A stretch of 64,000 bases of DNA from Candidatus Multivorans sp. (GTDB lineage: Bacteria > Acidobacteriota > Thermoanaerobaculia > Multivoradales > Multivoraceae), in assembly GCA_965224025.1 (NCBI GenBank), contig OZ245033.1:2688001-2752000 (forward strand). The letters are read 5' to 3'. The position numbers and the translations under genes were made by a program. Under the pieces are notes generated by a model, which had not been told where the DNA came from, did no database searches, and saw only the letters and a program-made list of their open reading frames with translations. Numbering within the stretch: position 1 is the first letter of the stretch; each line of letters starts with the position of its first letter. Positions 8,823 to 23,888 of the stretch are shown here, piece after piece.

Positions 8823-8899
8823 GGGCGCGGCTGGATTCGTCTCGTGTCCTCGCGTTGCTCAAGGGAAGACGGGCTGCCCGGAAGGAGCGCTATGCATGT

Positions 8900-9592
8900 T
8901 CAGCCGCTGAGCATCTGCTCGCGGCGCTCCGCGCGGGCGAAGGTGAGCGCGATGATGGCGGTAATTATGAGCGCGTAGCCGATGCGGTTCCGGACGGCCA
9001 TCGCGAGCAACTGCTCAGCGTCGGCTCCTTCCACCGTGAGCGGGTTCCAGAACGGCGAAATGCGGAACAGGAACGGGAGTAGGGCAGGCACGCTGACGGC
9101 CAGGCCGAATAGCCCGATGGTTGCCAGGGCGCCGGAAGTCTCGCTGCGGAACAAGGCAGCGAAACCCATGGTCAGTGCCAGACAGAAGACGGCTCCTTGC
9201 GCGGCGCCGTAGAGGGTCTGGAAGACTGGAAAGGCGGTGAAGAATGCGAATGTGAGCACCGCCATCAGGCTCAGGCTGGCAAGCAGGATGAGGCCCGCGG
9301 CGGCGAGCTTCCCAAGCCAGACTCGATGGGCGCCGCCCGGTACGGTGTAGGCGATCTCCAGGGTGTGCTCGTCGAGTTCCCCGGCGATGATCCGGCCGCC
9401 CAGAAACACGGCAAGAGCCGACACCGGCATGCCGATCAGGATGTTCTGGGCTGCGGCGGGTTCAAACCCGGTCTGGCGGGCGGTAACCAGCAAGACCGCC
9501 TGCACGGCAAGCCACGGAAGCGGCAGCAGTGGCAGCAGCCAGTACCGCGGGCCCCCGAGCAGCACGGCGGAGAGACGGATGATGGTGATCAC
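8900..9592 (-). CDS. ABC-2-type small permease, copy B
   Basis: About 6 TM segments; GELDEHTLEIAYTVPGGAHRVWLGK coupling-helix motif; start GTG 9592 by alignment with paralog 10472-11161. Confidence 0.85.
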   Translation of the reverse strand: MITIIRLSAVLLGGPRYWLLPLLPLPWLAVQAVLLVTARQTGFEPAAAQNILIGMPVSALAVFLGGRIIAGELDEHTLEIAYTVPGGAHRVWLGKLAAAGLILLASLSLMAVLTFAFFTAFPVFQTLYGAAQGAVFCLALTMGFAALFRSETSGALATIGLFGLAVSVPALLPFLFRISPFWNPLTVEGADAEQLLAMAVRNRIGYALIITAIIALTFARAERREQMLSG

Positions 9593-9837
9593 GCCAGAGT
9601 TCCGAGGGTCGCCAGACCGGGGCGGACATGTTTGGGTTCGACGCCAAGGAGCGATTGCTGCGAAAGAAGAGTTGGGAGTGACGCGAGGGCGACGAATACC
9701 AGCGGTGTCCACGCGACGCAGCCGACCGCTGATCGGCGCGTCCGCGTCGTCAGAGGCCCGGCGGCCGGTCCGACGTGGCATCCCGGTTGGTTCACTGGAC
9801 GTCGCCCTCGCGCCCACGCGGGAGGAAGGATATTGGC

Positions 9838-9908
9838 CCACCGGCGCTCTCGGAAGAGAGAATCCTCATCAATACGATCGCGTGTAGACTCTCGGGTGGC
9901 GCCGGTGG
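9838..9908 (-). terminator. Stem-loop downstream of precursor peptide A
   Basis: CCACCGGCGC (9838-9847) / GCGCCGGTGG (9899-9908) inverted repeat. Confidence 0.4.
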
Positions 9909-9917
9909 AGAGATTGG

Positions 9918-10211
9918 TTACACGCAGATAGCACCGACAAGGCCGAGGCCGGCACCCTGCCCGATTGGATCCCCTGCGATGGTGGCGGCTACGAAGAGCA
10001 GGTAGCCGAGACCCTTGACGGCCAGAGTGCAAGCTCCCGACCGCCACCCTTCACCGGTCACGGCGACCATGTCGGCATCCGTGAGTTGTTCGAGCCCGGG
10101 ATTGTCCGCGCCCGATGTGTCGCCCGCCACGGCCGTGACAGGGGGTTCTGCGAAGGCGCCGCCGACGCTCAGCACAAGCGCTGCCACTGCGAGAGTTAGA
10201 ACTTTCTTCAT
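9918..10211 (-). CDS. Putative secreted precursor peptide A (Sec signal + GG-type pro-segment + Cys-bracketed core)
   Basis: MKKVLTLAVAALVLSVGGAFA signal; GLEQLTDADMVAVTGE; core GWRSGAC...GDP...AICV; RBS GGAAAGGAACCAGGA. Confidence 0.85.
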   Translation of the reverse strand: MKKVLTLAVAALVLSVGGAFAEPPVTAVAGDTSGADNPGLEQLTDADMVAVTGEGWRSGACTLAVKGLGYLLFVAATIAGDPIGQGAGLGLVGAICV

Positions 10212-10364
10212 GATTCCTGGTTCCTTTCCGTTTCATTGGTTTGTGTTGCCGTCGACCCCGTTCGGAGAGGCCGACGACGCTGGTAGGCGGTGAGGTCCGG
10301 CGGAAGCCGAGAAGGCTTCGCAGGTCCGGCGACCCGCAGCGCCTCGTGGCGCCGCAGGGACTGT

Positions 10365-10390
10365 GCCCGCCTATAGACCTAAGACGGAAT
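10365..10390 (-). promoter_or_regulatory. Conserved upstream motif of peptide A (candidate promoter)
   Basis: Minus strand ATTCCGTCTTAGGTCTATAGGCGGGC, near-identical to 8798-8822. Confidence 0.55.
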
Positions 10391-10471
10391 TCGGAGCGGT
10401 TCTTGTCGCGAGGAACCTGAGAGGGGGGCTGGGTGGCGGTGGATGCGTGTCAGTCGATGGCGGAACCCGGC

Positions 10472-11161
10472 TCAGCCACCGAGCATCTTCTCCCGCCGTT
10501 CCGCTCGGGCGAAGGTAAGTGCCACGATGGCGACGATCGCGAGTGCGATGCCAATACGGTTCTGGACGCTCATGGCGAGCATCCGCGCCGCGTCGGCGTC
10601 CTCGATCGCGAGCGGATTCCATAGCGGCGAAATGCGGAACTGGATAGCGCCGAAGCTGGTGATCAAGCCGTTTAGGCCGAGGAGGCCGATCGTGGCCAGG
10701 GTACCGGCGACCTCGCTGCGGAACAGGGTGGCGAACCCCATCGCGGCAACGAGGTAGAAGACGACTCCCTGGCCCGCGCCGTAGAGGCTCTGGAGGACGG
10801 GGAAAGAGGTGAAGAAGGCGAACGAGACGGCCGCCATGAGAATCATGCTGGAGAGCAGGATCAGGATCGCGGCCGCGAGCTTGCTTAGCCAGACGCGATG
10901 GGCGCCTCCCGGCACGGTGTAGGCAATCTCCAGGCTGTGCTCGTCGAGTTCGCCTGTGATCGTCCGCCCACCCAGGAAGATGGCAAGGACTGCTACCGGC
11001 ACGCCGATCAGGGTGTTCTGGGCCGCCGCGGGCTCGAGCGTGGGCCGTCCCGCAAGCAGTAGCGCTGCCTGGATCGTCAGCCAAACGAGGGGCAGAAAAG
11101 GCAGCAACCAGTAGCGCCGCCCGGCCAGCAGCACCGCGGAGAGACGCAGCACGCCGATCAC
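10472..11161 (-). CDS. ABC-2-type small permease, copy A
   Basis: About 6 TM segments; GELDEHSLEIAYTVPGG; start overlaps the stop of the RND-ABC fusion (GTGA). Confidence 0.88.
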   Translation of the reverse strand: MIGVLRLSAVLLAGRRYWLLPFLPLVWLTIQAALLLAGRPTLEPAAAQNTLIGVPVAVLAIFLGGRTITGELDEHSLEIAYTVPGGAHRVWLSKLAAAILILLSSMILMAAVSFAFFTSFPVLQSLYGAGQGVVFYLVAAMGFATLFRSEVAGTLATIGLLGLNGLITSFGAIQFRISPLWNPLAIEDADAARMLAMSVQNRIGIALAIVAIVALTFARAERREKMLGG

Positions 11162-14100
11162 GCCGGGGTTCCACCGCGCGCCGCCCGCGCCAGCCAGAGG
11201 TAGCCGTCCTCGAGCGTGGGTTCGACCGGTTCGGCGCGTTGATCGGGGCGATCCGCGGCCAGCACGCGCAGGCGGCTGCTGCCGTCGGGCTCGGGTTGGC
11301 GATCAGCGAGCACGGACGTCTGGGGCAGCTCCGGCTCTTCATCTCCGGGCGCCGTCCAGGACCAGACGCGGCCTTCTGCCTCCCGGGACAGCGCCGCCGG
11401 CTCGCCGTCGAACACCATGCGGCCGCCGGTGAGCACCAGCACGCGCTCGCAGGCCACGGCCACGTCCTCGACGACGTGGGTGGAGAAGAGGACGATGCGG
11501 TCCTTGGCCAGGCGCGAGAGCAGGTTGCGGAAGCGGACGCGCTCGCGGGGGTCGAGACCGACGGTCGGCTCGTCGACGACGATGATCGGCGGCAGGCGCA
11601 GCAGCGTGCGGGCCACCGCGACCCGCTGCCGCATGCCGCCGGAGTAGCCACCGATCGGTTCGTCCGCGCGCTCGTCGAGTCCGACCTCGCGCAGCAGGGA
11701 CGCAATGCGCTCGGCTCGCTCCGACGCCTCGATCTGGTAGAGCGCGGCGTAGTACTCGAGGTACTGGCGGGCCGTCAGGCGCGCCGGCAGGCCGGCGTCC
11801 TGCGGCAGGTAGCCGACGTAGCGGGCCAGCCGCTTCCGGACGCTGAGCAGCGGCACGCCGCCCAGCGTGATCCGGCCGCGGGTCGAATCGAGAATGCCGG
11901 TCACCTGGCGGAGCAGGGTCGTCTTGCCGGCACCGTTCGGACCCAGCACGCCGACCATGCCTCGCTCGACTTCGAAGCTCACCGCGGCCAGCGCCTTCAC
12001 CGTGTCGATCGGCAGGTCGAGGCCGAAGATCCGGCTTGCAACCGCGCGCCAGAGGCGGATCAACATGCCGCGCCAGCCCCGTGTGCGCCGCTGGCGCGCC
12101 TCTCGCTGCTCCCGGCGCACCGTCTCGAGGCGCGCCGTGCGACGTCCGAGTTGGATGAAGAGAGTGATGGTGGAGAGGATGGTCACGACGACGAACCCGC
12201 CCACCGCGGGTTCGCTCGCGAGAGCCGGACCGGCGAGGCCCGCGAGAAGCGCCCAGGGCAGCAGGGCGGACAGCACGCCCTCGATGCCGCCCGGCTCGAC
12301 TCGTCCGAGCGCGTCGGCCCGGCCACGGGCACGCCGGACCTCGGTCAGCAACCGGGAAGCGATCAGCAGTGCGGCGATCCAGGCGCCCAGTTGGATCAGG
12401 TCGGCACGAAACCTCAGAGCCATGGCGACCGCGCCGGCGAGCAACAGGAGCAACGGCGGGATGCATTCCCGCGCGTCGGCGGGGTGGAACGCTTCACCGC
12501 CGCGGTCGACCACCTGCCTGGCGAAATCGGTCGACGCCCGCAGCGCCCGGCGCACCGGTCCCGCGAGGCCGTATGTCTTGCGCAGGTGGCGGACCACGAG
12601 GCGGGGCGGTCCGGCGCCGGCCTCCGGCTCCGGCGTCGGCGGCTTCGGCACCAGCCACACGGCGAGCCCGAGCAGCGCGCCGGCGATGAGGACCGTCGTC
12701 GTGATCTGCCAAAGCATGGACTCGATCACGCCGAGCACGAACAACGGGGCGGTGGCCGCGATGACCGCGCCGAGCCAGGTCAGCACCATCCAGGGTCCGA
12801 CGCGGCTGAACAGGTCGTCCAGGCGGCGCAGAAAGACGTAGCCGACCGGGATGACGAGCAGCGTGAGCACGGTCGAGGTCAGAAGACCGCCGATCACGAG
12901 TGTCGCGAAGGGCGGCCAGATCTCGTTCTCGCGTCCGGTGGCGATGGCCAGCGGCGCCAGCGCCGCGATTGTTGTCGCGCTCGTCATCAGCACCGGACGC
13001 GCGCGCTCCCGAACCGCGGCCAGGGCGGCGGCGCCGGCGCTCCAGCCGGCGCCGAGTACACGCTGCTGCATCCGGTCGACGAGCAGGACGGCGGGATTCA
13101 CCGCCAACCCCAGCAGGACGAGCGCCCCGAGCAGCGCCATCGGATCGAGCCCGATGCCTGAGAACATGAGCACCCACAGCGAGCCGAGCAGGGCCAGCGG
13201 CAGGGCCAGCAGGACGAGGATCGGCAGGGTCATCGATTCGAACGCCACCGCCAGAACCAGGAACACGAGCATCACGACCGGGCCGAGGACGCGCCGGAAC
13301 CAGCTCGTGTTCTCGTCCGAGCGGTCGAGCTCGATTGTCGTTCCGGGCGGGCGGTGGACGCTGGCGAGGGCCTCGTCCAGGTTGCGGTCGAACTCCAGCC
13401 GGGCCGCTCCGCTGCTTGGTACGTCGGACGAGACGCTGTAGATGACCTCCCGCTCGCGGCGGCCGTTGTGGTGGGTGATCACCGGGGAAGCCGGCGCGCG
13501 GCGGACCTGCGCCAGCGCCGCCACCGGCAGCACGCCGGCGCCGGTGGAGACGCGCAGCCGGGACAGGCCACTGAGCGACACTTCGCGGTCAGGACTCATC
13601 CCGTCTTCGGGCGTCGCGTCGCTGGGCCGAGCTTCCAGGCGTTGGACGACGATCGGAAGCTCGCGGCCGCTCGGAAGCGGGAAGCCGCTGTTGATGCTCG
13701 TGCCCTCGCGGCCGGCGAGATTCAGCATCGGCAGCACATCGTCGAGCAGCACGCCGAAGGTGTCGAAAGCGCGCCGGTTCGGGCTGACGTGGATCTCCTC
13801 GGGGCCGGGTCGCGAGGAGGGGAAGGCGCCGCTGATCCCCTCGATCTCCTTCAGCCGCTCGGCAACCTCGGCAGCGAGACCGGTCAACTGATCGTTGTCG
13901 TTTCCGGACAGGATGACCTTTTGGGGGCCGCCGCCGAGCAACTCCTGGGCGCCGCCCCCGCCGCCGGGGCCGCCGCCGCGACCGCCCGGGCCTTCGCCTT
14001 CGCCGGGTCGCAGAATCTCGGTGCCGGCGCGCCGGTTCGCGGCCCTGCGTACGAGCTGACGGATTCGCCGCGCGGTCAGTTCCTCGGGACGGTCCTCGAG

Positions 14101-15975
14101 GGGCTCGAGGTGCACCGTCAACGAGCCCCCCTCCTCGCGGATCATGCTTTCGACGCGGTCCACACCGTCGACTTCATGAACCGCTTCCAGGGGCTGAAAG
14201 GCGCGCACCGCGGCATCGAGCGAACTGCGGCTCTCGTCGAGGCGCACCGAGAGCTGGACCTGGTCTGCGATTTCTGCGTCCGGCGACACCGTGTTTCCGA
14301 GCACAAAGGGCAGGGCCACGAGCGCGGTGACGACGACGGCGAGAGCCACCGACGTGACCCAGCTCGCGGGCCGCCTCAATGCCGAGGCGAGAACTCCCGC
14401 GAACAGGATGCGGGTCGGGTCGGGCGGCGCCTGTCCGGCGAAGCGTTCGCGTCGCCGGCGCAGTCGGTCCAGCCGGCGGATTGCCGCGGGCGCGGCCAGA
14501 TGGCGGGCCAGCAGCGGTACGAGACCGATCGCCACCAGCAGGGAACCGAACAGCGGCAGCAGGATCGAGAGGGCGGCGATCGCGATCAGGTTGCGGATGA
14601 ACGACGATCCCAGGTCGACGAGCAACGGCGGCACGAACACGACCGCGGTGGTCACCGACGCGGCGATGATCGCGCGGGCGGTGCGACGAATGCCCCCCGC
14701 CGCGGCGTCGTCGGGACTTCGTCCTCGTTCGAGGCGCCGCTGGACGGACTCGAAGACGACGACGCTGTTGTCGACCAGGAGGCCGACCCCGACCGCCAGG
14801 CCGAAGAGGCTGATCAGGTTCAGCGTCTGGCCCGCCAGATAGAGGAAAGCCAGGGCCGAGGCCAGACTGACCGGCACGGCGATGGCGACAACCGCCACTG
14901 CCCGCCACTGTCGGAGGAAAAGGAACAGGACGGCGAGAGCGATCAGGAAACCGGTCAGACCGAGTTTCTTGAGCCGGTCGATCTGGGTCTCGACGAGCTC
15001 CGCGGCGTCGAAGCTGCTCAGCAGGCGAATGCCCAGCGGCTGGAGATCTTCGTTGATCTCTTCGATTCGGCGGCGGAGGTCGCGGCCGAGGCGAACCAGG
15101 TTCGCACCCTCTTCCTGGAGCACCATGACTCCGACCGAGGGGTCGCCGTTGACCCGGAACAGCGTTTGCCGCCGGCCGGGGCCGACCTCGATTTCGGCGA
15201 CGTGGCGCACCAGGGCCGGCCGGTCCGGCACGATCCGGACTTCGCCCATGGACACCGGCCCGATCGGGCGGCCGTCGAGCATCACCGCCATCCTCCCGGC
15301 CTCGTCCTCCAGGCTGCCGAGGTAGCGCAGGCGGCCGGCCGCGGCGCGCACCGCCGCCGTCACCTGCTCCGTGGTGACGCCGAGCGCGGCACAGCGGTTC
15401 GGGTCGACCCAGACGGTCAACTGGCGCGCCGCGCCGCCGCCGACCATCGCCTGGCTGACGCCCGAAACCGCGGCCAGCCGCGGAGTGACGAGTTCGTCGA
15501 CCAAACCGCGCAGGGCGTTCTGATCGGCCGCGCCGGTGACCTGCAGAACCATGGCGAAACTGGAAAGAAAGCCGGTGTCCTGGGACTGGACATCGAGGAA
15601 GGCATTCCGCGGCTGGGTGCGGGCCAGGTCCGCGGCGATCCGGCGCACCTCCAGCTCGCGCACCTTCAGGTCGACGCCACGCTCGAAGAGGATCGTGAAG
15701 CTGCCGCCGGAGCCGATGACCTCGCCCCAGGTTTCGGCGACCCGCGGCAGGGTCCGTACCCGGGCCTCCAGAGGCATCAGGATCTCCCGCTCGATGGTCT
15801 CCGGTTCGCTGCCCGGGCGGAAGAAGTTGACGTAGAGCTGGTCGCCGGTCAGGGCGGGGAAGAGTTCCACCGGCAACCTTTGCCATGCGAACAGCCCCAT
15901 GATCACCAGCCCCAGGAAGAACATCGCCACGGCGACGGGGCGGCGAATGGCGAGGGTGTCGAGACCGGCTCTCAC
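11158..15975 (-). CDS. RND efflux permease fused to a C-terminal ABC ATPase domain
   Basis: AcrB-like RRPVAVAM, LPVELFP, GLLVDNSVVV, RARPVLMTS; C-terminal GPNGAGKTT, GYLPQD, YSGGMRQR, IIVVDEPT, STH; single 1605-aa ORF. Confidence 0.9.
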   Translation of the reverse strand: MRAGLDTLAIRRPVAVAMFFLGLVIMGLFAWQRLPVELFPALTGDQLYVNFFRPGSEPETIEREILMPLEARVRTLPRVAETWGEVIGSGGSFTILFERGVDLKVRELEVRRIAADLARTQPRNAFLDVQSQDTGFLSSFAMVLQVTGAADQNALRGLVDELVTPRLAAVSGVSQAMVGGGAARQLTVWVDPNRCAALGVTTEQVTAAVRAAAGRLRYLGSLEDEAGRMAVMLDGRPIGPVSMGEVRIVPDRPALVRHVAEIEVGPGRRQTLFRVNGDPSVGVMVLQEEGANLVRLGRDLRRRIEEINEDLQPLGIRLLSSFDAAELVETQIDRLKKLGLTGFLIALAVLFLFLRQWRAVAVVAIAVPVSLASALAFLYLAGQTLNLISLFGLAVGVGLLVDNSVVVFESVQRRLERGRSPDDAAAGGIRRTARAIIAASVTTAVVFVPPLLVDLGSSFIRNLIAIAALSILLPLFGSLLVAIGLVPLLARHLAAPAAIRRLDRLRRRRERFAGQAPPDPTRILFAGVLASALRRPASWVTSVALAVVVTALVALPFVLGNTVSPDAEIADQVQLSVRLDESRSSLDAAVRAFQPLEAVHEVDGVDRVESMIREEGGSLTVHLEPLEDRPEELTARRIRQLVRRAANRRAGTEILRPGEGEGPGGRGGGPGGGGGAQELLGGGPQKVILSGNDNDQLTGLAAEVAERLKEIEGISGAFPSSRPGPEEIHVSPNRRAFDTFGVLLDDVLPMLNLAGREGTSINSGFPLPSGRELPIVVQRLEARPSDATPEDGMSPDREVSLSGLSRLRVSTGAGVLPVAALAQVRRAPASPVITHHNGRREREVIYSVSSDVPSSGAARLEFDRNLDEALASVHRPPGTTIELDRSDENTSWFRRVLGPVVMLVFLVLAVAFESMTLPILVLLALPLALLGSLWVLMFSGIGLDPMALLGALVLLGLAVNPAVLLVDRMQQRVLGAGWSAGAAALAAVRERARPVLMTSATTIAALAPLAIATGRENEIWPPFATLVIGGLLTSTVLTLLVIPVGYVFLRRLDDLFSRVGPWMVLTWLGAVIAATAPLFVLGVIESMLWQITTTVLIAGALLGLAVWLVPKPPTPEPEAGAGPPRLVVRHLRKTYGLAGPVRRALRASTDFARQVVDRGGEAFHPADARECIPPLLLLLAGAVAMALRFRADLIQLGAWIAALLIASRLLTEVRRARGRADALGRVEPGGIEGVLSALLPWALLAGLAGPALASEPAVGGFVVVTILSTITLFIQLGRRTARLETVRREQREARQRRTRGWRGMLIRLWRAVASRIFGLDLPIDTVKALAAVSFEVERGMVGVLGPNGAGKTTLLRQVTGILDSTRGRITLGGVPLLSVRKRLARYVGYLPQDAGLPARLTARQYLEYYAALYQIEASERAERIASLLREVGLDERADEPIGGYSGGMRQRVAVARTLLRLPPIIVVDEPTVGLDPRERVRFRNLLSRLAKDRIVLFSTHVVEDVAVACERVLVLTGGRMVFDGEPAALSREAEGRVWSWTAPGDEEPELPQTSVLADRQPEPDGSSRLRVLAADRPDQRAEPVEPTLEDGYLWLARAARGGTPA

Positions 15976-15988: not shown

Positions 15989-18900
15989 TCAGGCCCCGGC
16001 CGGGGCGCGGCGGCGCCGGGTCAGTCGCATCGAGTCGAGGATCAGGTAGAGGCAGGGCAGGACGAGGAGCGAGCCGACGGTGGAAGTCAGGATGCCTCCG
16101 ATGATCGTGTACGCCATCGGGCTCCGCAGTTCCGCGGCCTCGCCGGCGCCGAGAGCGAGCGGCGCCAGCACCAGGACGGTGGTCAGAGTCGTCATCAGGA
16201 TCGGCCGCAGCCGGATCGCCGCGGCCCGGGCCAGCGCGGCGTGCCGCTCCATGCCGGCGGCGAGCAGGCGCCGGGCGGTGGCGATCAGCAGGACCGCGTC
16301 GTTCACCGCCACGCCCGCGAGCACGATGAGGCCGAGCAGCGCCATGACCCCGACCGGCCGCCCGAGGAAGCCGAGGGTGCAGGCGACGCCGACCAGAGCC
16401 AGGGGGATCGAGAACAGCACCGTGAGCGGTTGGAGCAGGGACTCGAACGTTCCGGCCAGGACCATCAGCACGAGAACGAGTGCCAGCAGGCCCGCCCAGC
16501 GCAGTTCGCCGACGGCGCGCTCGCGTTCCTCCTCCTCGCCGGCCAGACGGACCCCCAGACCGGAGGGCAGGTCGGTTGCCGCGATCGCCTCGCCGGCTGC
16601 CGCGACAGCGCGCGGGTAGTCGCTGTCCTCGGCGACCCGGGCGGTCACCTGGGCGACGCGGCGCTGGTCGCGGCGGAAGACCTCGCGGGCGCCCTCGGCG
16701 GGGACGAAGCGGGCGACCTGGCCGAGGGCGAGATCCGCGCCGGCGTTGCTTGTGAAGCGCAGTTCGGCGAGTTCTTCGGGCCGCGGCTGGGGCAGAGAGA
16801 GGACGACATGGCGCTCCTCGTCTCCGGTCGAGAGCAGGGTGACCCTGCGGCCGTCGAGTGCGGACTGGAGCACTCGGGCGATCGTCTCCAGGCCGACGCC
16901 CAGACCGTCGGCCATCGCGCGGTCGAGTTCGATCCGCAGTTCCGGCGGCCCGCCCTCGAACGAGGAGCGGACGTTCCAGAGTTCGGATTGTGCGGCGAGG
17001 GCGTCGCGCAGTCTGGTGGCCGCCAGGCGCAGGTCGGGTAGCGACTGGCCGGCGATCTCGACCACGATCGGCGGCCCCGCGGAGCCAAGCGCGCGCGACA
17101 GGGCGGAGGCCCCGACCTCCCACTCGATCTCGGTACCCGGCAGGTCTTCGAAGTTGGGCTGCAGGGCGGCCACGATCTGGCCGCCGGTCGGCCCTTCGGC
17201 GGACATCCGGACGAGCAGGCGGGCCGTGTTCTCTTCGGTCAGCTCCGTGGTCACCAGCCGATCGTCCTCGGGCAGGCGGCCGACCTCGGCCTGGATCGCC
17301 TCCAGGTGCTCGCCGGCAGCCTGCCGGACCGCCTCTTCCAGCGTCGCAACGGCGCCGGCGGTGGCCTCGACGCGCTGGCCGGGCGGGCCCACCATGCGCA
17401 CCGAGAACTGCCGCGGGTCGGCGGGCGGCAGCAGCTCGCTGCCGAGTCCGAGCAGAACGTGGACGCCGCCGGCGGCGGCGAGCACCGCCGTCGCGACGAC
17501 CAGCCAGCGCAGCCGGAGCAGGGAGAGAACCAGGCGCTCGACGGCGCCGAAGGCCCAGCCCAGCGGGCGCGCCTCGTCTTCGTCGGGGTCCGCGGTTGTG
17601 CCGGTGGTTGCCGCCTCCGATGCCTCCTCAGTGGCCTCGGGCGCGGCGGTTTCCGGCTTCGCGCGCGGCAGGAGCCAGCGCGACAGGGCCGGAATCAGCA
17701 TGATCGCGACCGCCAGGGAGGCGCCGAGAGAGGCGGTGACGGTGAAGGCGATGCCCTCGATCAGACGCGCCGCCAGCCCCTGGACGAAGAGGACGGGTAG
17801 GAAGACCACGCAGGTGGTGAGCGTCGAGGCGGCGATTGCGCCCGCGACCTCGCCCGTGCCCCTGGCGGCCGTGTCGGCTGCCGAAGCGCCGGGGCGGTGG
17901 CGGCGGTGGATGCTCTCGACAACGACGATCGCGTTGTCCACCAGCATGCCGGCGCCGAGCGCCAGCCCGGCCAGGGTGATGATGTTCAGGGAGTGCTCCC
18001 ACAGCCGCATCGCGAACAGGGCGACGAACAGGGACACCGGCACTGCCGAGGCCACGACCACGGTCGGACCGAGGGAGCGCAGGAACAGCGCCAGGACGAC
18101 GACGGCGAGGGCGATGCCGATCAGGGCCGCGTTCAACAGATCGTCCATCGCGTCCTCGACCAGGGCGGCGTCGTCGTTGACCATCGAGACGCTGACCCGG
18201 GGCAGGTCGCGCTCCAGGTCGTCGAGCGCCGCGCGCACGGTGCGCGAGACCTCCACGGTGTTCGCGCCGGCCTCCTTGAACACCTGGAGACCGACGCCCT
18301 CCCGGCCGTTCACCCGCACCAGGTGGTCGATCTCGGCGTGGGCGAGTTCGACCTCGGCGACATCGGAGACCCGGATCGGCTGACGGACCTGCTGGCCTCC
18401 CCCCACCTGCTGAGTGCGGTAGCGCACGACGACCCGCTCGACATCGCGGGAGTTCCGGAACCGGGAGATGCCGCGAACGAGATAGACTTGACCGCCGTCC
18501 TCCAGGGTGCCGGCGTCGATGTCGACGTTCTCGGCTACGAGTCGCTGCTCGAGTTGATTCAACGTGACGCCGAACGCCTGCAGGCGGTAGCGGTCGACGC
18601 GTACACGGACCTCCAGGTCGCGTCCGCCGAGGACCCGGACCTCGGCGACGTCGGCAAGCTGCTCCATGGCCGGCGCCACTTGGCGGCGCGCCAGGCGGCG
18701 GAGCTCGGCGAGATCGGGTCCTTCGGGCTCGGCGGCCAGCCCCAGGGTGATCACCGGCGACTGCCGCGGATCGAGTTGACGGACCAGGACCTCGTCGACT
18801 TCGGGGTCGGCGGCGACCGGATTGACCGCCTTCTGCACCTCGATCAGCGCCAAGTCCATGTCGGCGTCCCAGTCGAAGCGGACGGTGGCGATCAGGCGGC

Positions 18901-19183
18901 CGGTGCGGGCCACCTGGTGAACCTCGCGGAGGCCGCGCACCGTGAACAGGCGCTGCTCGACCTGCTCGCCGTAGAGCCGCTCCATCTCGGTCGGCGGCCG
19001 GTCGCCGGAACGCACGGCGACGACGATGGTCGGCGAACGCAGGTCGGGCAGGAGGTCGATCGGCAGTTCGCGCCACGACATCCAGCCCACCAGGGCGAAG
19101 GCCAGGGCGGTGACGGTGACCGCTACGGGCCGGCGCGCAGCCAGGCGGGCGGGACCGAAGGTCTCACCGGATGTTCGAGTCAT
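15989..19183 (-). CDS. RND (AcrB/AcrD/AcrF family) efflux permease
   Basis: LPIDLLP, GMLVDNAIVVVE, GVAVNDAVLL, RLRPILMTTLTT; 1064 aa. Confidence 0.93.
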   Translation of the reverse strand: MTRTSGETFGPARLAARRPVAVTVTALAFALVGWMSWRELPIDLLPDLRSPTIVVAVRSGDRPPTEMERLYGEQVEQRLFTVRGLREVHQVARTGRLIATVRFDWDADMDLALIEVQKAVNPVAADPEVDEVLVRQLDPRQSPVITLGLAAEPEGPDLAELRRLARRQVAPAMEQLADVAEVRVLGGRDLEVRVRVDRYRLQAFGVTLNQLEQRLVAENVDIDAGTLEDGGQVYLVRGISRFRNSRDVERVVVRYRTQQVGGGQQVRQPIRVSDVAEVELAHAEIDHLVRVNGREGVGLQVFKEAGANTVEVSRTVRAALDDLERDLPRVSVSMVNDDAALVEDAMDDLLNAALIGIALAVVVLALFLRSLGPTVVVASAVPVSLFVALFAMRLWEHSLNIITLAGLALGAGMLVDNAIVVVESIHRRHRPGASAADTAARGTGEVAGAIAASTLTTCVVFLPVLFVQGLAARLIEGIAFTVTASLGASLAVAIMLIPALSRWLLPRAKPETAAPEATEEASEAATTGTTADPDEDEARPLGWAFGAVERLVLSLLRLRWLVVATAVLAAAGGVHVLLGLGSELLPPADPRQFSVRMVGPPGQRVEATAGAVATLEEAVRQAAGEHLEAIQAEVGRLPEDDRLVTTELTEENTARLLVRMSAEGPTGGQIVAALQPNFEDLPGTEIEWEVGASALSRALGSAGPPIVVEIAGQSLPDLRLAATRLRDALAAQSELWNVRSSFEGGPPELRIELDRAMADGLGVGLETIARVLQSALDGRRVTLLSTGDEERHVVLSLPQPRPEELAELRFTSNAGADLALGQVARFVPAEGAREVFRRDQRRVAQVTARVAEDSDYPRAVAAAGEAIAATDLPSGLGVRLAGEEEERERAVGELRWAGLLALVLVLMVLAGTFESLLQPLTVLFSIPLALVGVACTLGFLGRPVGVMALLGLIVLAGVAVNDAVLLIATARRLLAAGMERHAALARAAAIRLRPILMTTLTTVLVLAPLALGAGEAAELRSPMAYTIIGGILTSTVGSLLVLPCLYLILDSMRLTRRRRAPAGA

Positions 19184-19222: not shown

Positions 19223-20329
19223 CTATTGGGAGACCCGGACGCGTGTACCGTCGGTCAGGGTCTCGAGACCGCGTACGACGACCCGCTCGCCGAGCTCGAG
19301 CCCCTGGCGAATCTCGGTGATCTCGTCGTCGCCGAGGCCGAGAACGACTTCGCGCCGCACCGCGCGCTGGCCGTCGAGGACGAAGACGACGCGCCGGCCG
19401 CCGCGCTCGGTAACCGCCTCGCGCGGAATGACGGGGACGTCGTTTCGCTGCTCGACGACCAGGGTCACTTCGACGAACATGCCCGGCCGCAGCAGGCCGC
19501 CGGGATTGCGCACGGCGACCTCGGCGCGGAAGGTGTGGGCGACCGGGTCGACCTCGGGGGACAGGCGAACGACCGCGCCTGCGAACGTCTGGCCCTCCCA
19601 GGCGAAGTGCCTGAGCCGGCCCTGCTGCCTGGGGTGGACCCGCGCCAGTTCGGGGCCCACGAGGTCGATGTCGGCGACCAGGGAGTCGACCGGAGCGATC
19701 CGGGCCACCTGGAAGCCCTGGGAGACGAGCTGGCCGTCGGCGATCGGCATGCCGTTCGGGTCGCGCGCGAGTTCCATCAGCACACCGCCGATCGGAGTCA
19801 GCATCTTCGCGCGGTCCTCGGTCAGGAGGCTCTGCTCCCAGGTCGCCTTCGCGTCCTCGAGCGCGATCTCGGCGCGGCGCAGTTCCTCGGCACTGATCAG
19901 TTCCTGCTCGAACAGCTTGGCGCGGGCGTCTCGTTCGGCCTCGGCGCCCAGGTAGGCCTGGTGGGTTGCTTCGACCCGGGCCGCAAGGCGTGCGTCCTCG
20001 CCGGTGACCTCCGCGATCATCTGGTCGGGGACGACGCGGTCGCCCTCGGCCAGCCGGTCGCCGGAACCGTTGCGGCCGATCAGCAGTCTCCCGGGCGTTT
20101 CGACCTGCAGGACGATGCTCTCGGCCGCTCGCAGAGTGCCGGTGGCGACGATCAGATCCTCGACGCTGCCGGTTTCGACCTCGGCCGCGGTGACCGGCAC
20201 CAGGAAGTCGACGGGGTCCGTGCTGCCGCCGCCTTCGCAGGCGACGATCGCGGCGCAGGCCGCAATCGCAATTGCGAGGCCCGCGCGCCGGAAGTTGGCG
20301 GTCGGGCGGGATGGCTGCCGCGCGCTCAT
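19223..20329 (-). CDS. RND periplasmic adaptor (MFP), probable lipoprotein
   Basis: Start MSARQP (ATGA overlap with upstream gene); lipobox IVAC; LLRPGMFVEV, IPREAV, GLELGERVVVRG. Confidence 0.9.
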   Translation of the reverse strand: MSARQPSRPTANFRRAGLAIAIAACAAIVACEGGGSTDPVDFLVPVTAAEVETGSVEDLIVATGTLRAAESIVLQVETPGRLLIGRNGSGDRLAEGDRVVPDQMIAEVTGEDARLAARVEATHQAYLGAEAERDARAKLFEQELISAEELRRAEIALEDAKATWEQSLLTEDRAKMLTPIGGVLMELARDPNGMPIADGQLVSQGFQVARIAPVDSLVADIDLVGPELARVHPRQQGRLRHFAWEGQTFAGAVVRLSPEVDPVAHTFRAEVAVRNPGGLLRPGMFVEVTLVVEQRNDVPVIPREAVTERGGRRVVFVLDGQRAVRREVVLGLGDDEITEIRQGLELGERVVVRGLETLTDGTRVRVSQ

Positions 20330-23300
20330 GGCCCCGCGCCCCCGGTCTCGGCACGGCCGGCGGCGGCGCCGTTGTCGAGCCGCACGAAGCGCACGGCGTC
20401 CGCGGCGACCGCTCTGCCGGAGGTCTCGTCGCTCAGGACCAGTTCGGTCGGGCCGCCGGCCAGATCGAAGTCTCCGAGCACCGCCCATCCGGTTCCCGCG
20501 GCCGCGGCGTCGAAGTCGATCGGCCGGGAGACGCCGCCGTTCTGCAGTTCGAGGTCGTAGGTACCGAGATTCAGGCCCAGGTTCACCGAGATCCGCACGC
20601 CGTCGCCGTCGTTCCCTCTTCGCTGAGCGTTTCCTCCATCGTTGCCGACCCGCACTTCCCGACGCACGCCCGCGGCGCCGGCTGGCAGCGGCGAGAGCGA
20701 CGGTACGTGCAGTTCGACTCGCCAGCGGCCGTCTGCCGGCAACTCCGTCCGGTAGATCGCGCGGCTGGTCCCTTCGCCCGCTGGCGCCAGGGCGGTCGTG
20801 CGGCGGTAGCGCCCCCAACTCGTGGGCTGTTCGTAGCGCGACCATTCTGTCGGCGTTCCGCCGAAGCTCTGGTAAACGAGCAGGCCCTGATCCGTCTGGT
20901 TCGACGGTGCGAAGAAGCCGGCGAGACCGCCCTGCAGCCGGAAGCCGCCGGTATCCGCTTCATCCGTCTCGATCGAGAAGCCGGGGTCCAGGTCGTCGAC
21001 GACGACCATGTCGGTCGCTGATCGCAGGAAGGCGGGCAGCCAGTCGGCCGGTCGCGTGCCGCGTAGCGGTTCGGCCTCGACGATCGATTCGTCGTCGACA
21101 TCAGGCAGATCGATCGGGAACTCCCGGCGGTTCAGCGACAGATACGGGGAAGCGAGCATCCTGCCCGGCGCCCTGGACGTGACCAGGCCGAATTCGACGG
21201 AGGTGTTTCCCGGGATCAGAGTTGGCTCGCTGGTCTCCCAGCGCACCCCGCTCGGTGCGCGAACGGCGTAGCGGAGCCGGAAGAGGCCGGGCGCTTTCTC
21301 GCCGTTGTGGACGAAGAGACGGGTCTGGTACTGCGGCAGGCCCTGGTCGTCGTCCGCCAGCCGCACGAGTTCGGCTGCGGAGACGACGAAGCCGGGCAGG
21401 TCGGTCTGGTGGAGGAAGTCGCCGACCAGGCCGGCGAGGTCCACGCCGGCTTCCTGAGCGGCCCGTTCGAGGTCGGCGGCGGTGAAGGTCGAGCCCCGGT
21501 GGTCGCGCATGAGGTTGGCGATCATCGCGGCGGTCCGTTCCCGGCCGGCGCCGTCCAGGATTGCGGTGGCCAGGGCCGAGGTCTTCAGGTAGAGCGCGTT
21601 GAGCGCCTTCTTCGGCTCCTCTTCGACCTCCATTTTCGTCAGCGAGGCGCCGAGCACGGCGTCCCAGACTTCGGGGCGGTCCGTGAGGCTCCTCACGATC
21701 GAACTGGAGATGGGTGCGCCGCCTCCGCCGAGCTGGCCCAACACGGCGCCCTGTACCACGCTGCCGATCGTCCAGCCGAACTCGCGGTCGAACAGGTGGG
21801 CCGAGAAGTACGATTCGCCGCCGCTCACCAGCCGGTTCACCAGGTTGTTGCACAGTTCGTCGAGCGCCAGCGCCTCCGGACCGCGGGCGGCGGTCTGATA
21901 CAGGAACAGGTTGCGGATGCCGCCCACCTCCACGTTGCCGCCCGAGAAGTCGTTGCGGAAGAACTGCTGCAGTCTGAAGGCCTTTGCCCGCGCCAGACCG
22001 CCCTCCTGCTCCTCGAACTGCTCAGGGTTGCGGAACGGGAACTCGAAGCGAGCGGTCGGCAGGCTGCTCTCGCTGATCAGCACCATGCCCGGCGGTGCGC
22101 GCTCGGTGTCCATGCGCCAACCGCCGCCGTAGGAACGCAGCGTCCAGGGCACTTCGACCAGGGTGAGTTGGCGGTAGGGGTAGGGCAGACCGAGCTCGCG
22201 GGCAGTGGCGAAGCGCTCGGCGGCGACCGCTTCGATCTCTTCCCTGGCATCGGCGAAGAACTCCACGTTTCTGAGATGGCGGGGGTGGACGAGCAGTTCG
22301 ATCTCGACGCCCTCGATCTCCGTCGTCCGGCGATCGAACCGTCCGGCGATCAGGGCCGCTTCAGGCACGACCCCCACCGGTGCGAACCGTTGCCGGTCGC
22401 CTGCCGCCTCGCCTCTGCCTGGCCCGGCGACCGTCCAGCCCGAGGGGGCGCCGACCTCCAGGTCGAGTTCGAAGAAGTCTCTGGGACGCCTTCGCGGATC
22501 GGCGAGGCCAACTGAAGCGCCGGGGCGTGGCAGCCAGGCCAGCGCGGCGGGCAGCGCGACGTAGCGACGCTCCGCAAAGCCGTTCAGGGCGCCGAGAATG
22601 ATGATCTGCGCGTCCTGGAACTTGATCCGGTTGAAATCGATCGCGGAATCCAGGTGGGCGAAGCGAAGGTCAGGCCGTCCGTGGGCGCGCAGGCGAAGGT
22701 CGACGGCTTGGCCCGCGGCCTGCGAGCGCCCGAGGTCGACTTCGAGCAGGCCGGCGCCGTGGTTGAAGGCGAGCGGCGCGCCGGCAGAGTCCTCGACGGC
22801 ATCGACGTCAAGGCCGGGGTTCAGGCTGAAGAGGGCCCGCGAACCTCCGGCGGCGAGGAACCGGACGTTGACGTCGAGGGTCAGACGACCCCGCGGTTCG
22901 ATGTCGACGGAGCCGTGGATCCGCTCCAGGTCAAGGACCGGTTCCTCCTGACGTTCCGCGTGGGCGATCCGCCAGTCGTCGATCTCGTCGACCTGGTTGG
23001 TGGCGGTCACCGCGGCGGCCGCGATCGTGCCGATGGCCGCGACCAGAAGGCCGGCGCCGGCGGTGGCCCACAGGCGTCGCCGGGCGTCGTCGAGCCGGGG
23101 ATGGACGGCGACGGCGACCGCAAGCAGACCAACGGCCAGCGCCGCGACCGTGGCCCGGTTCATCAGGTTCAGGGCGGTCCATATCTGGGGCGCGACTTCG
23201 GACGGATTGCTGCCGAAGCCGCCCTGGAGCGACAGGATGGGCAGGATGTAGGTCGGTACGCGGAAGGAGAGAATCCATGGACCGATGGCCAGCCCGAGGC

Positions 23301-23874: not shown

Positions 23875-23888
23875 TGTCGGGCCCTCCT

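What the first reader, a model, noticed from the sequence alone, without database searches (positions are those of the whole stretch)
11989..12600. About 189-aa four-helix membrane insert inside the ABC ATPase domain of the RND fusion
Seen: the NBD start LVVRHLRKTYG (12568-12600) is separated from VKALAAVSFEVERGMVGVLGPNGAGKT (from 12000) by 567 nt encoding four hydrophobic segments and Arg-rich linkers. The free ATPase in the same operon has these elements adjacent (ARGLRHVYRGGTVALNGVDL). Walker A/B, Q-loop, signature and H-loop are intact. Inference: an NBD anchored to the membrane from within its A-loop region, which is an unusual architecture and may couple ATP hydrolysis to the RND or ABC-2 subunits.
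Basis: partly seen in the sequence, partly recalled or inferred. Interest (0 to 1): 0.75.

Follow-up and report, generated by a model that had tools for sequence, protein, structure and literature searches.

The report
ABC ATPase split by membrane helices
A large efflux-pump protein carries an ATP-burning domain whose first strand is separated from the rest by four membrane-spanning helices, a conserved and apparently undescribed way of stapling an ABC motor to the membrane next to an RND pump.

Summary
The gene at 11158-15975 (minus strand, 1605 aa) is an RND pump followed by two extra membrane helices. Next comes a textbook ABC beta1/A-loop motif (LVVRHLRKTYG, residues 1126-1136), then a 189-aa insert with four hydrophobic helices, then the rest of a catalytically intact ABC ATPase.

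Four results say the upstream strand is this ATPase's own beta1.
- Its Lys is invariant, and its Leu and Tyr are at least 90% conserved, in 72 homologues down to 26% identity.
- A profile of free ABC ATPases aligns to 14 of 14 fusion proteins only from profile position 14-17.
- A beta1 weight matrix picks the same aligned column in 71 of 72 rows.
- AlphaFold2 (pLDDT 92.0, pTM 0.84; a 28%-identical Bacteroidales homologue gives 94.6, 0.85) makes it a 10-residue strand, and the only possible partner strands lie in the ATPase.

The four hydrophobic peaks are conserved and obey the positive-inside rule. A complex model supports docking of the ATPase onto the co-translated 229-aa ABC-2 permease (0.61 against 0.00 for controls).

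I read it as an ABC-2 export module tethered to an RND tripartite pump. The fold is a prediction, I never saw coordinates, and function is inferred. My literature searches found no description of it. I rate it a new variant of a known kind.

The parts
11158..15975 (-). Whole gene: RND pump fused to a membrane-tethered ABC ATPase (1605 aa, GTG start)
   Evidence: ORF list and translation. Pfam gives ACR_tran at residues 8-1049 (E 1.2e-141) and ABC_tran at 1331-1471 (E 6.7e-27).
12829..15954 (-). RND (AcrB-like) domain, residues 8-1049
   Evidence: Pfam PF00873 and NCBIfam RND_permease_2. Against solved pumps, TM4 reads D-N where they have D-D, and TM10 has Asn where they have Lys.
12652..12810 (-). 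Two extra membrane helices after the RND domain (TM13 about residues 1056-1080, TM14 about 1087-1108)
   Evidence: Hydropathy. AF2 helices H2-26 and H33-54. Conserved family-mean hydropathy peaks at 9-27 and 37-55.
12568..12600 (-). Displaced beta1 strand with the A-loop tyrosine (LVVRHLRKTYG, residues 1126-1136; Y1135)
   Evidence: K1133 is invariant; L1131 and Y1135 are at least 90% conserved in 72 sequences. AF2 strand E72-81, block pLDDT 98. Best beta1 matrix hit in 71 of 72 rows. Y1135 and G1136 lie in the modelled interface with the permease.
12001..12567 (-). 189-aa insert between beta1 and beta2 (residues 1137-1325)
   Evidence: Coordinates. A canonical ATPase profile does not align across it. 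Mean top-residue frequency is 0.37, against 0.62 for the ATPase.
12505..12558 (-). Cytoplasmic amphipathic helix directly after beta1 (about residues 1140-1157)
   Evidence: AF2 H86-103. Conserved G-x-P-G-P...R-x-W-R stretch.
12328..12483 (-). First helical hairpin of the insert (TM15 about 1165-1188, TM16 about 1192-1216)
   Evidence: AF2 H111-134 and H138-162. Conserved hydropathy peaks at 117-136 and 138-156; 3-residue outer loop.
12106..12288 (-). Second helical hairpin of the insert (TM17 about 1230-1254, TM18 about 1258-1290, which extends into the cytoplasm)
   Evidence: AF2 H176-200 and H204-236. Conserved hydropathy peaks at 180-198 and 205-223.
12028..12075 (-). Arg-rich cytoplasmic helix leading back into the ATPase (about residues 1301-1316)
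   Evidence: AF2 H247-262. The stretch after TM18 holds 12 K+R.
11383..12000 (-). ABC ATPase core from beta2 onward (residues 1326 to about 1531), with Walker A at 11920-11943
   Evidence: Motif coordinates and invariant motif residues. Nearest solved chains by fold are TM_1403 (4yer) and TM0544 (1vpl); by sequence the ABCA4/ABCA7/ABCA1 ATPase domains rank first, then 4yer and 1vpl.
11179..11367 (-). C-terminal beta-rich domain after the ATPase (about residues 1537-1599)
   Evidence: AF2 strands E483-488, E501-507, E513-518 and helix H534-545. Y538 (Y1592) is invariant.
10472..11161 (-). 229-aa six-helix ABC-2-type permease. Its GTG start overlaps the fusion's TGA stop (GTGA).
   Evidence: Sequence read. 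Homologue downstream of the Bacteroidales fusion in L007 (21% identity, E 2e-6). Some relatives carry PF12679. Complex model 0.61 against 0.00 for controls.
15989..19183 (-). Unfused RND paralogue immediately upstream (1064 aa)
   Evidence: Pfam ACR_tran E 3.5e-198. The same gene order occurs in L007.
19223..20845 (-). Periplasmic adaptor (membrane-fusion protein) of the pump
   Evidence: Pfam HlyD_D23. NCBIfam RND_mfp E 3.1e-45.

Best explanation
This is a real, conserved protein architecture. An ABC ATPase of the ABC-2/DrrA/GldA/ABCA type has had its first beta strand, which carries the ATP-stacking A-loop tyrosine Y1135, cut off from the rest of the domain. The cut is a 189-aa insert in the beta1-beta2 hairpin.

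The insert consists of a cytoplasmic helix, two transmembrane helical hairpins and an Arg-rich return helix. With two further helices that link it to the C-terminus of an RND pump, the ATPase hangs under a six-helix membrane bundle. It is stapled to the membrane on both sides of beta1.

Shown by prediction and conservation: the strand still completes the ATPase fold, and all catalytic motifs are intact.

Inferred with support from a complex model: the ATPase docks by its Q-loop groove onto the coupling loop (ELDEHSLEIAYTVP) of the separately encoded, translationally coupled 229-aa ABC-2 permease. Together they form a type-V-like ABC export module.

Inferred only: the module is physically tied to a tripartite RND pump (adaptor plus two RND paralogues, with an outer-membrane factor gene alongside in the related loci L007 and L001). 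ATP-driven extraction from the cytoplasm or inner leaflet would feed the RND stage directly. The membrane insert would fix the motor's orientation and position.
For: Anatomy and coordinates.

Family:
- 120 listed homologues at 52-100% identity all carry both RND and ABC Pfam domains.
- 116 of these 120 have the L-x-V-x-x-L-x-K-x-Y motif at -215 to -226 from Walker A.
- 1 of the 120 lacks the motif, and 3 had no regex Walker A.

Alignment of 72 sequences, down to 26% identity:
- K1133 is the only invariant residue outside the ATPase core and its C-terminal domain.
- L1131 and Y1135 are at least 90% conserved.
- The local alternative 'SRIFG', 26 residues before Walker A, has a variable aromatic position.

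Profile and matrix tests:
- A profile of 19 canonical ATPases aligns from position 14-17 only, in 14 of 14 fusion C-termini.
- A beta1 weight matrix built from those canonical ATPases finds its best hit on the invariant-K column in 71 of 72 rows.
- Among 150 representatives of 50%-identity clusters, 50 have the aromatic residue 181-247 residues upstream of Walker A. One of these, P0246, is probably false. A further 14 sit at 33-90 residues, 55 are canonical, 28 are unconvincing and 3 have no Walker A.

AlphaFold2:
- Window protein: pLDDT 92.0, pTM 0.84, strand E72-81 with block pLDDT 98, six long helices.
- Apart from two isolated one-residue bridges (165 and 171), all other strands are in the ATPase or its C-terminal domain.
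- The Bacteroidales homologue gives the same picture: 94.6 and 0.85, strand E76-85.

Membrane character:
- Six hydropathy peaks are conserved, also in the 35 rows below 40% identity.
- K+R counts are 10 and 12 in the two long cytoplasmic stretches, and 0-1 in the predicted outer loops.

Partner:
- The stop and start overlap as GTGA.
- The gene order adaptor - RND - RND::ABC - small permease recurs in a Bacteroidales MAG.
- Complex model ipSAE 0.61 (runs 0.64, 0.59, 0.61) against a best control of 0.00.
- That mark was reached by 116 of 157 solved complexes and 2 of 215 mismatched pairs.
- The runs agree in at least 90% of their contacts, and the partner's pLDDT is at least 75.
- The interface is Y1135-G1136 plus Q-loop-region residues, against permease residues 3-15, 74-93 and 223-228.
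Against: - No coordinates were available. Pairing of beta1 with beta2 is inferred from DSSP strand assignment and from the contact list, not seen directly.
- AlphaFold2 may complete a familiar ATPase fold by habit.
- The two models share most of their alignment rows, so they are not independent.
- Transmembrane status rests on Kyte-Doolittle hydropathy and helix length only. TM15 and TM17 are only moderately hydrophobic in the family mean (0.82 and 0.87).
- The complex pass may reflect likeness to solved ABC-2 ATPase/permease complexes such as NosFY. My own alignments were used, so the calibration counts hold only roughly.
- No confident contact was listed between the insert helices and the permease.
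- RND pumps are trimers and ABC motors are dimers. How the two symmetries are reconciled is unresolved.
- Context conservation for the long-insert class rests on the window plus one other locus (L007).
- Substrate and direction are unknown.
Confidence: 0.7

Rival explanations
1. The six extra helices (two before beta1, four inside the insert) are themselves the transmembrane domain of the ABC module. Beta1 would sit in the cytoplasmic loop between the second and third helices, where type V exporters place their coupling helix (recalled). The 229-aa protein would be a second, heteromeric membrane subunit or an accessory.
For: There are six conserved helices, in a 2+4 arrangement with beta1 plus a cytoplasmic helix between them. 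Foldseek gives long (560-585 column) alignments to ABCA4, ABCA7 and ABCA3, which span a transmembrane domain plus an ATPase. The module almost never occurs without the RND: only 5 hits of 303-965 aa, and 3 of them still contain RND sequence.
Against: Those ABCA alignments have rmsd above 22 Å and a query-normalised TM-score near 0.4, which the ATPase alone explains. The Q-loop groove is occupied in the complex model by the coupling loop of the 229-aa permease. That permease has the ABC-2 loop motif and is conserved downstream. No Pfam or NCBIfam membrane-domain family matches residues 1055-1325, and the Atlas gave no hit.
Confidence: 0.12
2. The ATPase mainly drives or gates the RND pump. Nucleotide-dependent movement of beta1 and the ATPase would be passed through TM13-TM18 to the RND transmembrane domain, supplementing or replacing proton coupling.
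For: Beta1 is tethered on both sides to helices that continue directly from RND TM12. Against solved pumps, the fused RND has D-N in TM4 where they have D-D, and Asn in TM10 where they have Lys. By a crude regex, 'DN' was found in 125 and 'NP' in 111 of 159 stored fusion-sized proteins.
Against: One TM4 Asp and the TM11 Arg are retained, and other RND families use different relay residues (recalled), so proton coupling may persist. The unfused paralogue also reads D-N in TM4. A dedicated ABC-2 permease is encoded and modelled onto the ATPase, which an RND-only motor would not need. Nothing was tested about RND-ATPase contacts.
Confidence: 0.1
3. The upstream motif is not part of this ATPase. 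It would be a relic of a lost domain, or an unrelated conserved cytoplasmic element, and the ATPase would work without a beta1 or with the local segment before beta2.
For: The local segment ...RAVASRIFG... puts an aromatic residue 26 residues before Walker A, which is about the canonical spacing. Beta1-like patterns are short. In 18 of 72 rows at least one of 200 shuffles reached the observed matrix score.
Against: The local aromatic position is not conserved: F, G, A, W, V and I all occur. The upstream K is invariant, and L and Y are at least 90% conserved. The matrix hit falls on the same column in 71 of 72 rows. AF2 makes it a 10-residue strand at pLDDT 98 in two homologues. A second predictor places Y1135 and G1136 at the ATPase-permease interface.
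Confidence: 0.05
4. The architecture is an artefact: a misassembly, a frameshift or a gene-calling fusion.
For: None found. Some database relatives are truncated fragments.
Against: The frame is continuous and open. The same 1570-1610 aa architecture occurs in over a hundred 90%-identity clusters from several sources, including contigs of 4-5 Mb, and in another phylum.
Confidence: 0.01

Closest known systems
CFTR NBD1 regulatory insertion
   Same: The insertion is at the same site, between strands beta1 and beta2 of the ABC-specific beta subdomain. In CFTR this is residues 403-438 (passage read in PMC5873040). It shows that this hairpin tolerates extra sequence.
   Different: The CFTR insertion is about 36 residues and loop-like, not membrane-embedded (same passage). 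Here the insert is 189 aa with four predicted transmembrane helices. No homology was tested or expected.
Short-insert RND::ABC fusion proteins (uncharacterised; e.g. P0241, P0249, P0192, L001 6521-10834)
   Same: They have an RND domain fused to the same ATPase subfamily, and beta1 is again displaced from beta2.
   Different: The aromatic residue sits only 46-75 residues before Walker A. The extra 22-45 residues are polar and contain no hydrophobic segment, and there are no extra helices after the RND. Whether they are ancestral to the long class was not tested.
ABC-2 / type V exporter modules with separate ATPase and six-helix permease (NosFY, DrrAB, GldAF; solved relatives TM_1403 4yer, TM0544 1vpl, NosF 7osf)
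   Same: The ATPase subfamily is the same by NCBIfam (GldA 6.2e-49, DrrA 1.6e-47), by fold and by sequence. The permease has an E-x-x-x-L-E...P cytoplasmic loop, and the modelled interface uses it.
   Different: In those systems the ATPase is a free soluble subunit with a contiguous beta1-beta2 hairpin. Here it is covalently tied to an RND pump and split by membrane helices.
Tripartite ABC pumps with a periplasmic adaptor (MacAB-TolC; YbhGFSR)
   Same: They combine an ABC motor, a membrane-fusion adaptor and an outer-membrane channel. MacB topology comes from the passage read in PMC8277102. YbhFSR comes from search listings only.
   Different: MacB has its ATPase fused N-terminally to its own four-helix permease and contains no RND. 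Here the ABC module is appended to an RND pump, and the adaptor is of the RND type.
Heteromeric RND pumps encoded by two adjacent RND genes (MdtBC; recalled, not checked here)
   Same: Two adjacent RND paralogues sit behind one adaptor gene.
   Different: Only one of the two paralogues carries the ABC module. Subunit stoichiometry is unknown.

Membership tests
ABC ATPase (PF00005), ABC-2/DrrA/GldA/ABCA-like subfamily | Walker A, Q-loop, ABC signature, Walker B with catalytic Glu, and H-loop | tested here: met
   GPNGAGKT 1345-1352, LPQD 1390-1393, YSGGM 1444-1448, IIVVDEPT 1464-1471, STH 1498-1500. The key residues are invariant in 72 sequences. Pfam E 6.7e-27; NCBIfam GldA/DrrA.
ABC ATPase (PF00005), ABC-2/DrrA/GldA/ABCA-like subfamily | Beta1 strand with the A-loop aromatic residue, contiguous with beta2 (aromatic about 20-32 residues before Walker A) | tested here: not met
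   The aromatic Y1135 is 210 residues before Walker A. A canonical profile aligns only from position 14-17. 55 of 150 representatives are canonical and 50 are displaced like this one.
ABC ATPase (PF00005), ABC-2/DrrA/GldA/ABCA-like subfamily | Beta1 and the A-loop present in the folded domain, regardless of sequence contiguity | tested here: inconclusive
   Predicted as a strand at pLDDT 98 in two models, and placed at the ATPase surface in the complex model. Coordinates were not inspected and no experiment was done.
RND permease (PF00873, AcrB-like) | Twelve-helix RND fold with two large periplasmic loops | tested here: met
   ACR_tran covers 8-1049 of the protein and 4-1020 of the 1021-position profile, E 1.2e-141.
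RND permease, HAE-1 type (AcrB/MexB) | TM4 Asp-Asp pair and TM10 Lys of the proton relay (residue roles recalled) | tested here: not met
   The alignment to solved pumps gives v-d-n against v-d-d in TM4, and Asn against Lys in TM10. The TM11 Arg is kept. NCBIfam scores are far below the equivalog cut-offs.
ABC-2 (type V) exporter: ATPase plus separate six-helix permease | Adjacent, co-transcribed six-helix permease whose cytoplasmic loop docks in the ATPase groove | tested here: inconclusive
   GTGA overlap. Weak PF12679 hits in the paralogue and in relatives. The permease is conserved downstream in L007. Complex model 0.61 against 0.00, with the coupling loop in the interface. This is a model, not a measurement, and it may draw on solved look-alikes.
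CFTR-type regulatory insertion | Soluble, disordered, phosphoregulated loop between beta1 and beta2 | tested here: not met
   The site is the same, but this insert is 189 aa, helical and hydrophobic.
MacB (type VII) tripartite ABC transporter | N-terminal ATPase fused to a four-helix permease with a large periplasmic domain | tested here: not met
   Here the ATPase is C-terminal to an RND domain and six helices, and no MacB-family hit was listed for the fusion. MacA appears only as a weak hit of the adaptor.

The most novel reading that the evidence does not exclude
The fusion builds a pump with two energy sources and a fixed asymmetry. An RND heterotrimer would contain one unfused subunit and two fused subunits, so that exactly two ATPases can dimerise beneath it.

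Because beta1, which bears the adenine-stacking tyrosine, is held between membrane helices continuous with RND TM12, ATP binding and release would pull directly on the RND transmembrane domain. That domain has lost two of the three classical relay residues. ATP would then drive or gate an RND conformational cycle, which is something no known RND pump does.
Probability: 0.12. Interest if true: 0.92.

Novelty: new variant of a known kind. Interest (0 to 1): 0.68.

Why it matters
ABC ATPase domains are among the most studied protein folds, and they are treated as compact soluble cassettes. A large, phylum-spanning family in which the cassette is split after its A-loop by four membrane helices would show two things: the beta1-beta2 hairpin can host an entire membrane domain, and nucleotide sensing can be wired straight into the bilayer.

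The same proteins also join the two main bacterial efflux superfamilies, RND and ABC, in one polypeptide. That offers a natural test of the long-discussed idea that inner-membrane exporters hand substrates to periplasm-capturing RND pumps. It also raises the question of how a dimeric motor fits a trimeric pump.

About 49 clusters at 50% identity among the 150 best representatives share the layout, so suitable targets for structure determination should be easy to find.

Tried and rejected
1. Local A-loop hypothesis. 'SRIFG' at 1316-1320 has canonical spacing to Walker A, but I rejected it because the aromatic position varies across the family.

2. Genome-collection scan with the family alignment. 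Of the 14 loci I examined out of 80, only L007 (long class) and L001 (short class) were RND::ABC fusions. Conservation of gene context is therefore thinly sampled.

3. Foldseek against the PDB. It returns no aligned ranges, so it could not show whether beta1 superposes on the beta1 of solved ATPases. The long ABCA alignments have rmsd above 22 Å and are uninformative about the helices.

4. Loose regular-expression classification of beta1 offsets. It mislabelled hydrophobic helices as beta1. I discarded it and replaced it with the weight-matrix classification.

5. ESM Atlas search with residues 1060-1325 gave no usable hit.

6. The listing of cluster members, used to judge whether the 501-539 aa forms (P0124, P0223, P0170) are whole genes, could not be run.
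   - A word-index search with residues 1-275 of the C-terminal piece then found only 5 proteins of 303-965 aa.
   - Three of these still contain RND sequence.
   - One RND-free form (594 aa) is on a 2.1-kb contig.
   - The other (P0124, 539 aa) is on a 14.9-kb contig.
   - Only the 8000 candidates sharing most words were scored. Stand-alone forms look rare, but they are not excluded.

7. Literature.
   - The search for 'RND-ABC', 'ABC-RND', 'RND-ABC fusion' and 'AcrB-ABC' found 0 papers.
   - Broader term searches listed nothing describing an RND::ABC fusion or a membrane insert in an ABC ATPase.
   - A search for 'fused to', 'fused with', 'chimeric' and 'hybrid transporter' in the held first 300,000 characters of the review PMC8277102 gave only MacB and chimeric-pump passages.
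   - Subscription journals are not covered.

8. In the rerun only the first BLAST segment (TM4 region) of the fusion-versus-RND1 comparison was printed, so the TM10 comparison with the unfused paralogue was not confirmed by alignment.

Full report
**What is there**

The finding lies inside one long gene on the minus strand, 11158-15975, encoding 1605 aa.
- Pfam finds an AcrB-type RND domain over residues 8-1049 (E 1.2e-141).
- It finds an ABC ATPase domain over 1331-1471 (E 6.7e-27), and nothing between them.

- LVVRHLRKTYG is residues 1126-1136 (nt 12568-12600).
- VKALAAVSFEVERG...GPNGAGKT starts at residue 1326 (nt 12000).
- The gap is 189 aa, or 567 nt, in a continuous open frame.

Kyte-Doolittle windows of at least 1.6 mark four hydrophobic segments inside the gap. 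Two more lie between the RND domain and the motif, at 1062-1113. The free ATPase of the neighbouring ABC system (23945-24952, minus strand) has the same two elements side by side. All catalytic motifs of the fused ATPase are present.

**Is the upstream motif really this ATPase's beta1?**

I treated this as the central question and tested it five ways.

1. *Conservation.*
   - A word-index search with residues 1055-1605 returned 1262 proteins at E <= 0.001 among the 8000 candidates scored.
   - The 120 listed are 52-100% identical, and all carry both RND and ABC Pfam domains. Source names include Holophagales, Acidobacteriota and Thermoanaerobaculia.
   - In 116 of these 120 a pattern L/V-x-V-x-x-L-x-K-x-Y lies 215-226 residues before Walker A.
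   - One partial protein lacks the pattern. Three had no Walker A by my regular expression and could not be placed.
   - In a 72-sequence alignment reaching down to 26% identity, K1133 is the only invariant residue outside the ATPase core and its C-terminal domain. L1131 and Y1135 are at least 90% conserved.

2. *The local alternative.* The segment just before beta2 reads ...SRIFG..., with an aromatic residue 26 residues before Walker A, which is about the canonical spacing. That position varies (F, G, A, W, V, I) across the family, so it is not a conserved A-loop.

3. *Profile alignment.* A profile built from 19 free-standing ATPases aligns to 14 of 14 fusion C-termini only from profile position 14-17 onward. 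The part corresponding to beta1 and the A-loop has no local counterpart.

4. *Weight matrix.*
   - I built an 11-column matrix of the canonical beta1/A-loop and scanned it over up to 330 residues upstream of beta2.
   - Its best hit falls on the invariant-K column in 71 of 72 rows.
   - In the window protein the score is 20.9 against -1.9 +/- 2.9 for shuffles, and 0 of 200 shuffles reach it.
   - The matrix is small: in 18 of 72 rows at least one shuffle reached the observed score. The consistency of position carries the argument, not the score.

5. *Structure prediction.*
   - AlphaFold2 on residues 1055-1605 with the 72-row alignment gave mean pLDDT 92.0 and pTM 0.84.
   - Residues 1126-1135 form a 10-residue strand, with block pLDDT 98.
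   - The model has helices at 2-26, 33-54, 86-103, 111-134, 138-162, 176-200, 204-236 and 247-262 (model numbering; add 1054). Beta2 is at 272-282.
   - DSSP assigns a strand only to residues in a hydrogen-bonded ladder. Apart from two isolated one-residue bridges (165 and 171), every other strand in the model lies in the ATPase or its C-terminal domain. The motif must therefore be paired with the ATPase sheet. This is an inference: I could not see coordinates.
   - A second model, of a Bacteroidales homologue 28% identical to the window protein, gives the same layout: pLDDT 94.6, pTM 0.85, strand 76-85. The two alignments overlap heavily, so this is a robustness check and not independent proof.
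   - A different predictor, used for the complex job, lists Y1135 and G1136 among the residues at the ATPase-permease interface, together with Q-loop-region residues. That again places the end of beta1 on the body of the ATPase.

**Is the insert in the membrane?**

- Family-mean hydropathy shows six peaks, at 9-27, 37-55, 117-136, 138-156, 180-198 and 205-223 in model numbering. The same peaks appear in the 35 rows below 40% identity.
- The AlphaFold2 helices over these peaks are 22-33 residues long.
- Charge distribution fits the positive-inside rule and an even number of crossings.
  - The beta1 loop has 10 K+R and the stretch after the last helix has 12.
  - The three predicted outer loops have 0, 1 and 0.
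  - The middle inner loop has 3.
- With the RND C-terminus cytoplasmic (established for AcrB; recalled), two plus four crossings keep both beta1 and the ATPase in the cytoplasm.
- The weak points: TM15 and TM17 are only moderately hydrophobic in the family mean (0.82 and 0.87), and no dedicated topology predictor was available.

**How widespread is it, and are there intermediates?**

An exhaustive HMMER search of 1.84 billion cluster representatives listed the best 150. I classified them with the weight matrix.
- 50 have the aromatic residue 181-247 residues before Walker A. One of these, P0246, is a multi-ATPase protein with no hydrophobic segment and is probably a false assignment.
- 14 have it at 33-90 residues.
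- 55 are canonical, 28 gave no convincing beta1, and 3 had no Walker A.

Nine of the 14 'short' proteins are RND::ABC fusions of 1226-1487 aa, and three more are fragments of such fusions. Their extra 22-45 residues are polar, and they have no extra helices after the RND. The beta1-beta2 hairpin is therefore enlarged throughout the RND-fused ATPases, and the four-helix version is one large branch.

Forms without the RND look rare. Only 5 proteins of 303-965 aa matched the helix region. Three of them still contain RND sequence, and one of the other two sits on a 2.1-kb contig. The look-up that would have settled this could not be run.

**Partners and context**

- The fusion's TGA stop overlaps the GTG start of a 229-aa protein (10472-11161) in the sequence GTGA.
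- That protein has about six hydrophobic helices (my reading of the translation, not computed) and a conserved cytoplasmic loop, ELDEHSLEIAYTVP. Its window paralogue and several relatives score weakly for the ABC-2 family PF12679.
- Upstream on the same strand lie an unfused RND paralogue (15989-19183) and an RND-type periplasmic adaptor (19223-20845).
- A Bacteroidales MAG contig (L007) has the same order: outer-membrane factor, adaptor, RND, RND::ABC with beta1 at -212, and a 239-aa membrane protein homologous to the 229-aa one (21% identity, E 2e-6).

A complex job with the 551-aa C-terminal piece and the 229-aa protein supports binding but does not show it.
- The ipSAE was 0.61 (runs 0.64, 0.59, 0.61), against a best control of 0.00.
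- That mark was reached by 116 of 157 solved complexes and 2 of 215 mismatched pairs.
- The runs agree in at least 90% of contacts, and the partner's pLDDT is at least 75.
- I used my own alignments, so the calibration counts hold only roughly.
- Solved ABC-2 ATPase/permease complexes exist, so the pass may partly be memory of look-alikes.

The interface is the expected one. On the ATPase side it comprises residues 302-309, 327-346 (including the Q-loop), 350-360, 402 and 406, plus Y1135 and G1136. On the permease side it comprises the N-terminus (3-15), the conserved loop (74-93) and the C-terminus (223-228). No confident contact between the insert helices and the permease was listed. That is uninformative either way.

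**How it most likely works**

*Shown by sequence.* This is an intact ATPase of the ABC-2/DrrA/GldA/ABCA kind. Its A-loop strand is encoded 189 residues away from the rest.

*Predicted with high confidence.* The strand completes the fold, and the intervening sequence forms two membrane hairpins flanked by cytoplasmic helices.

*Inferred.* The ATPase is fixed under a six-helix bundle continuous with RND TM12. It powers the adjacent ABC-2 permease, and the whole ABC module rides on a tripartite RND pump. The simplest function is substrate hand-over, from ATP-driven extraction (cytoplasm or inner leaflet) to RND-driven expulsion.

I put about 0.85 on the structural statement, about 0.5 on the functional one, and 0.7 on the explanation as a whole.

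*Unresolved.* It is unclear how a dimeric motor fits a trimeric pump. The conserved pairing of a fused and an unfused RND gene invites a 2:1 heterotrimer, but nothing here tests that.

**Comparison with what is known**

- The closest precedent for the site is the regulatory insertion of CFTR NBD1, located between beta1 and beta2 at residues 403-438 (passage read in PMC5873040). It is short and loop-like, not membrane-embedded.
- The closest functional relatives are ABC-2 modules with free ATPases, and tripartite ABC pumps such as MacAB-TolC (passage in PMC8277102).
- My searches for RND-ABC fusions found 0 papers. Broader searches found nothing relevant. Subscription literature is not covered.
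- Automatic annotations already name these proteins as AcrB plus an ABC ATPase, so the fusion as such is visible in databases. The split beta1 with a membrane insert appears undescribed.

**Verdict**

I rate it a new variant of a known kind, with interest 0.68.

Noticed in passing
window 8431-11161 (-): A tandem duplicated cassette lies downstream of the fusion. Permease A (10472-11161) is followed by a 97-aa peptide (9918-10211). Permease B (within 8900-9841; 68% identical to A, and its true start is probably internal) is followed by a 98-aa peptide (8431-8727; 33% identical to the first, E 4e-12). By eye, both peptides have a signal-peptide-like N-terminus, a double-glycine-leader-like stretch and a Gly/Ala-rich hydrophobic tail. 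They have no NCBIfam hit and were not scanned against Pfam. They could be exported peptides, or substrates or immunity partners of the pump.
   Followed up: partly
window 14476-14988 and 12796-13338 (-): The fused RND domain reads D-N in TM4 where solved AcrB/MexB-type pumps have D-D, and has Asn where they have the TM10 Lys. The TM11 Arg is kept. By a crude regular expression, 'DN' was found in 125 and 'NP' in 111 of 159 stored fusion-sized proteins. The unfused paralogue also has D-N in TM4. Its TM10 was not aligned.
   Followed up: partly
L001 6521-10834; proteins P0176, P0179, P0192, P0206, P0211, P0241, P0242, P0249, P0270: A second class of RND::ABC fusions (1226-1487 aa) has only a 22-45 residue polar extension between beta1 and beta2 and no extra membrane helices. 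It may be an evolutionary intermediate or a sister form.
   Followed up: partly
proteins P0064, P0067, P0071: Some relatives are 1840-1876 aa long and additionally carry sigma-70 region 4 domains (PF04545, PF08281) in the precomputed Pfam column. This is either a further fusion or a merged gene call with a neighbouring sigma factor.
   Followed up: no
window 20326-24952 (-): A separate ABC-2 system sits directly upstream of the adaptor gene. It comprises a free ATPase (23945-24952) and a 1234-aa permease (20326-24030) with an ABC2_membrane_2 region and a C-terminal Golvesin_C domain. The L007 locus has no such pair.
   Followed up: no
window about 13920-14010 (-), residues about 655-685 of the fusion: A glycine-rich, low-complexity stretch (GEGEGPGGRGGGPGGGGGAQELLGGGP) sits inside the periplasmic part of the RND domain, which is unusual for a porter domain. 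The family consensus also shows a GGG run there.
   Followed up: no
window 11158-11161 (-): The fusion's stop codon and the permease's start codon overlap as GTGA, which suggests translational coupling.
   Followed up: yes
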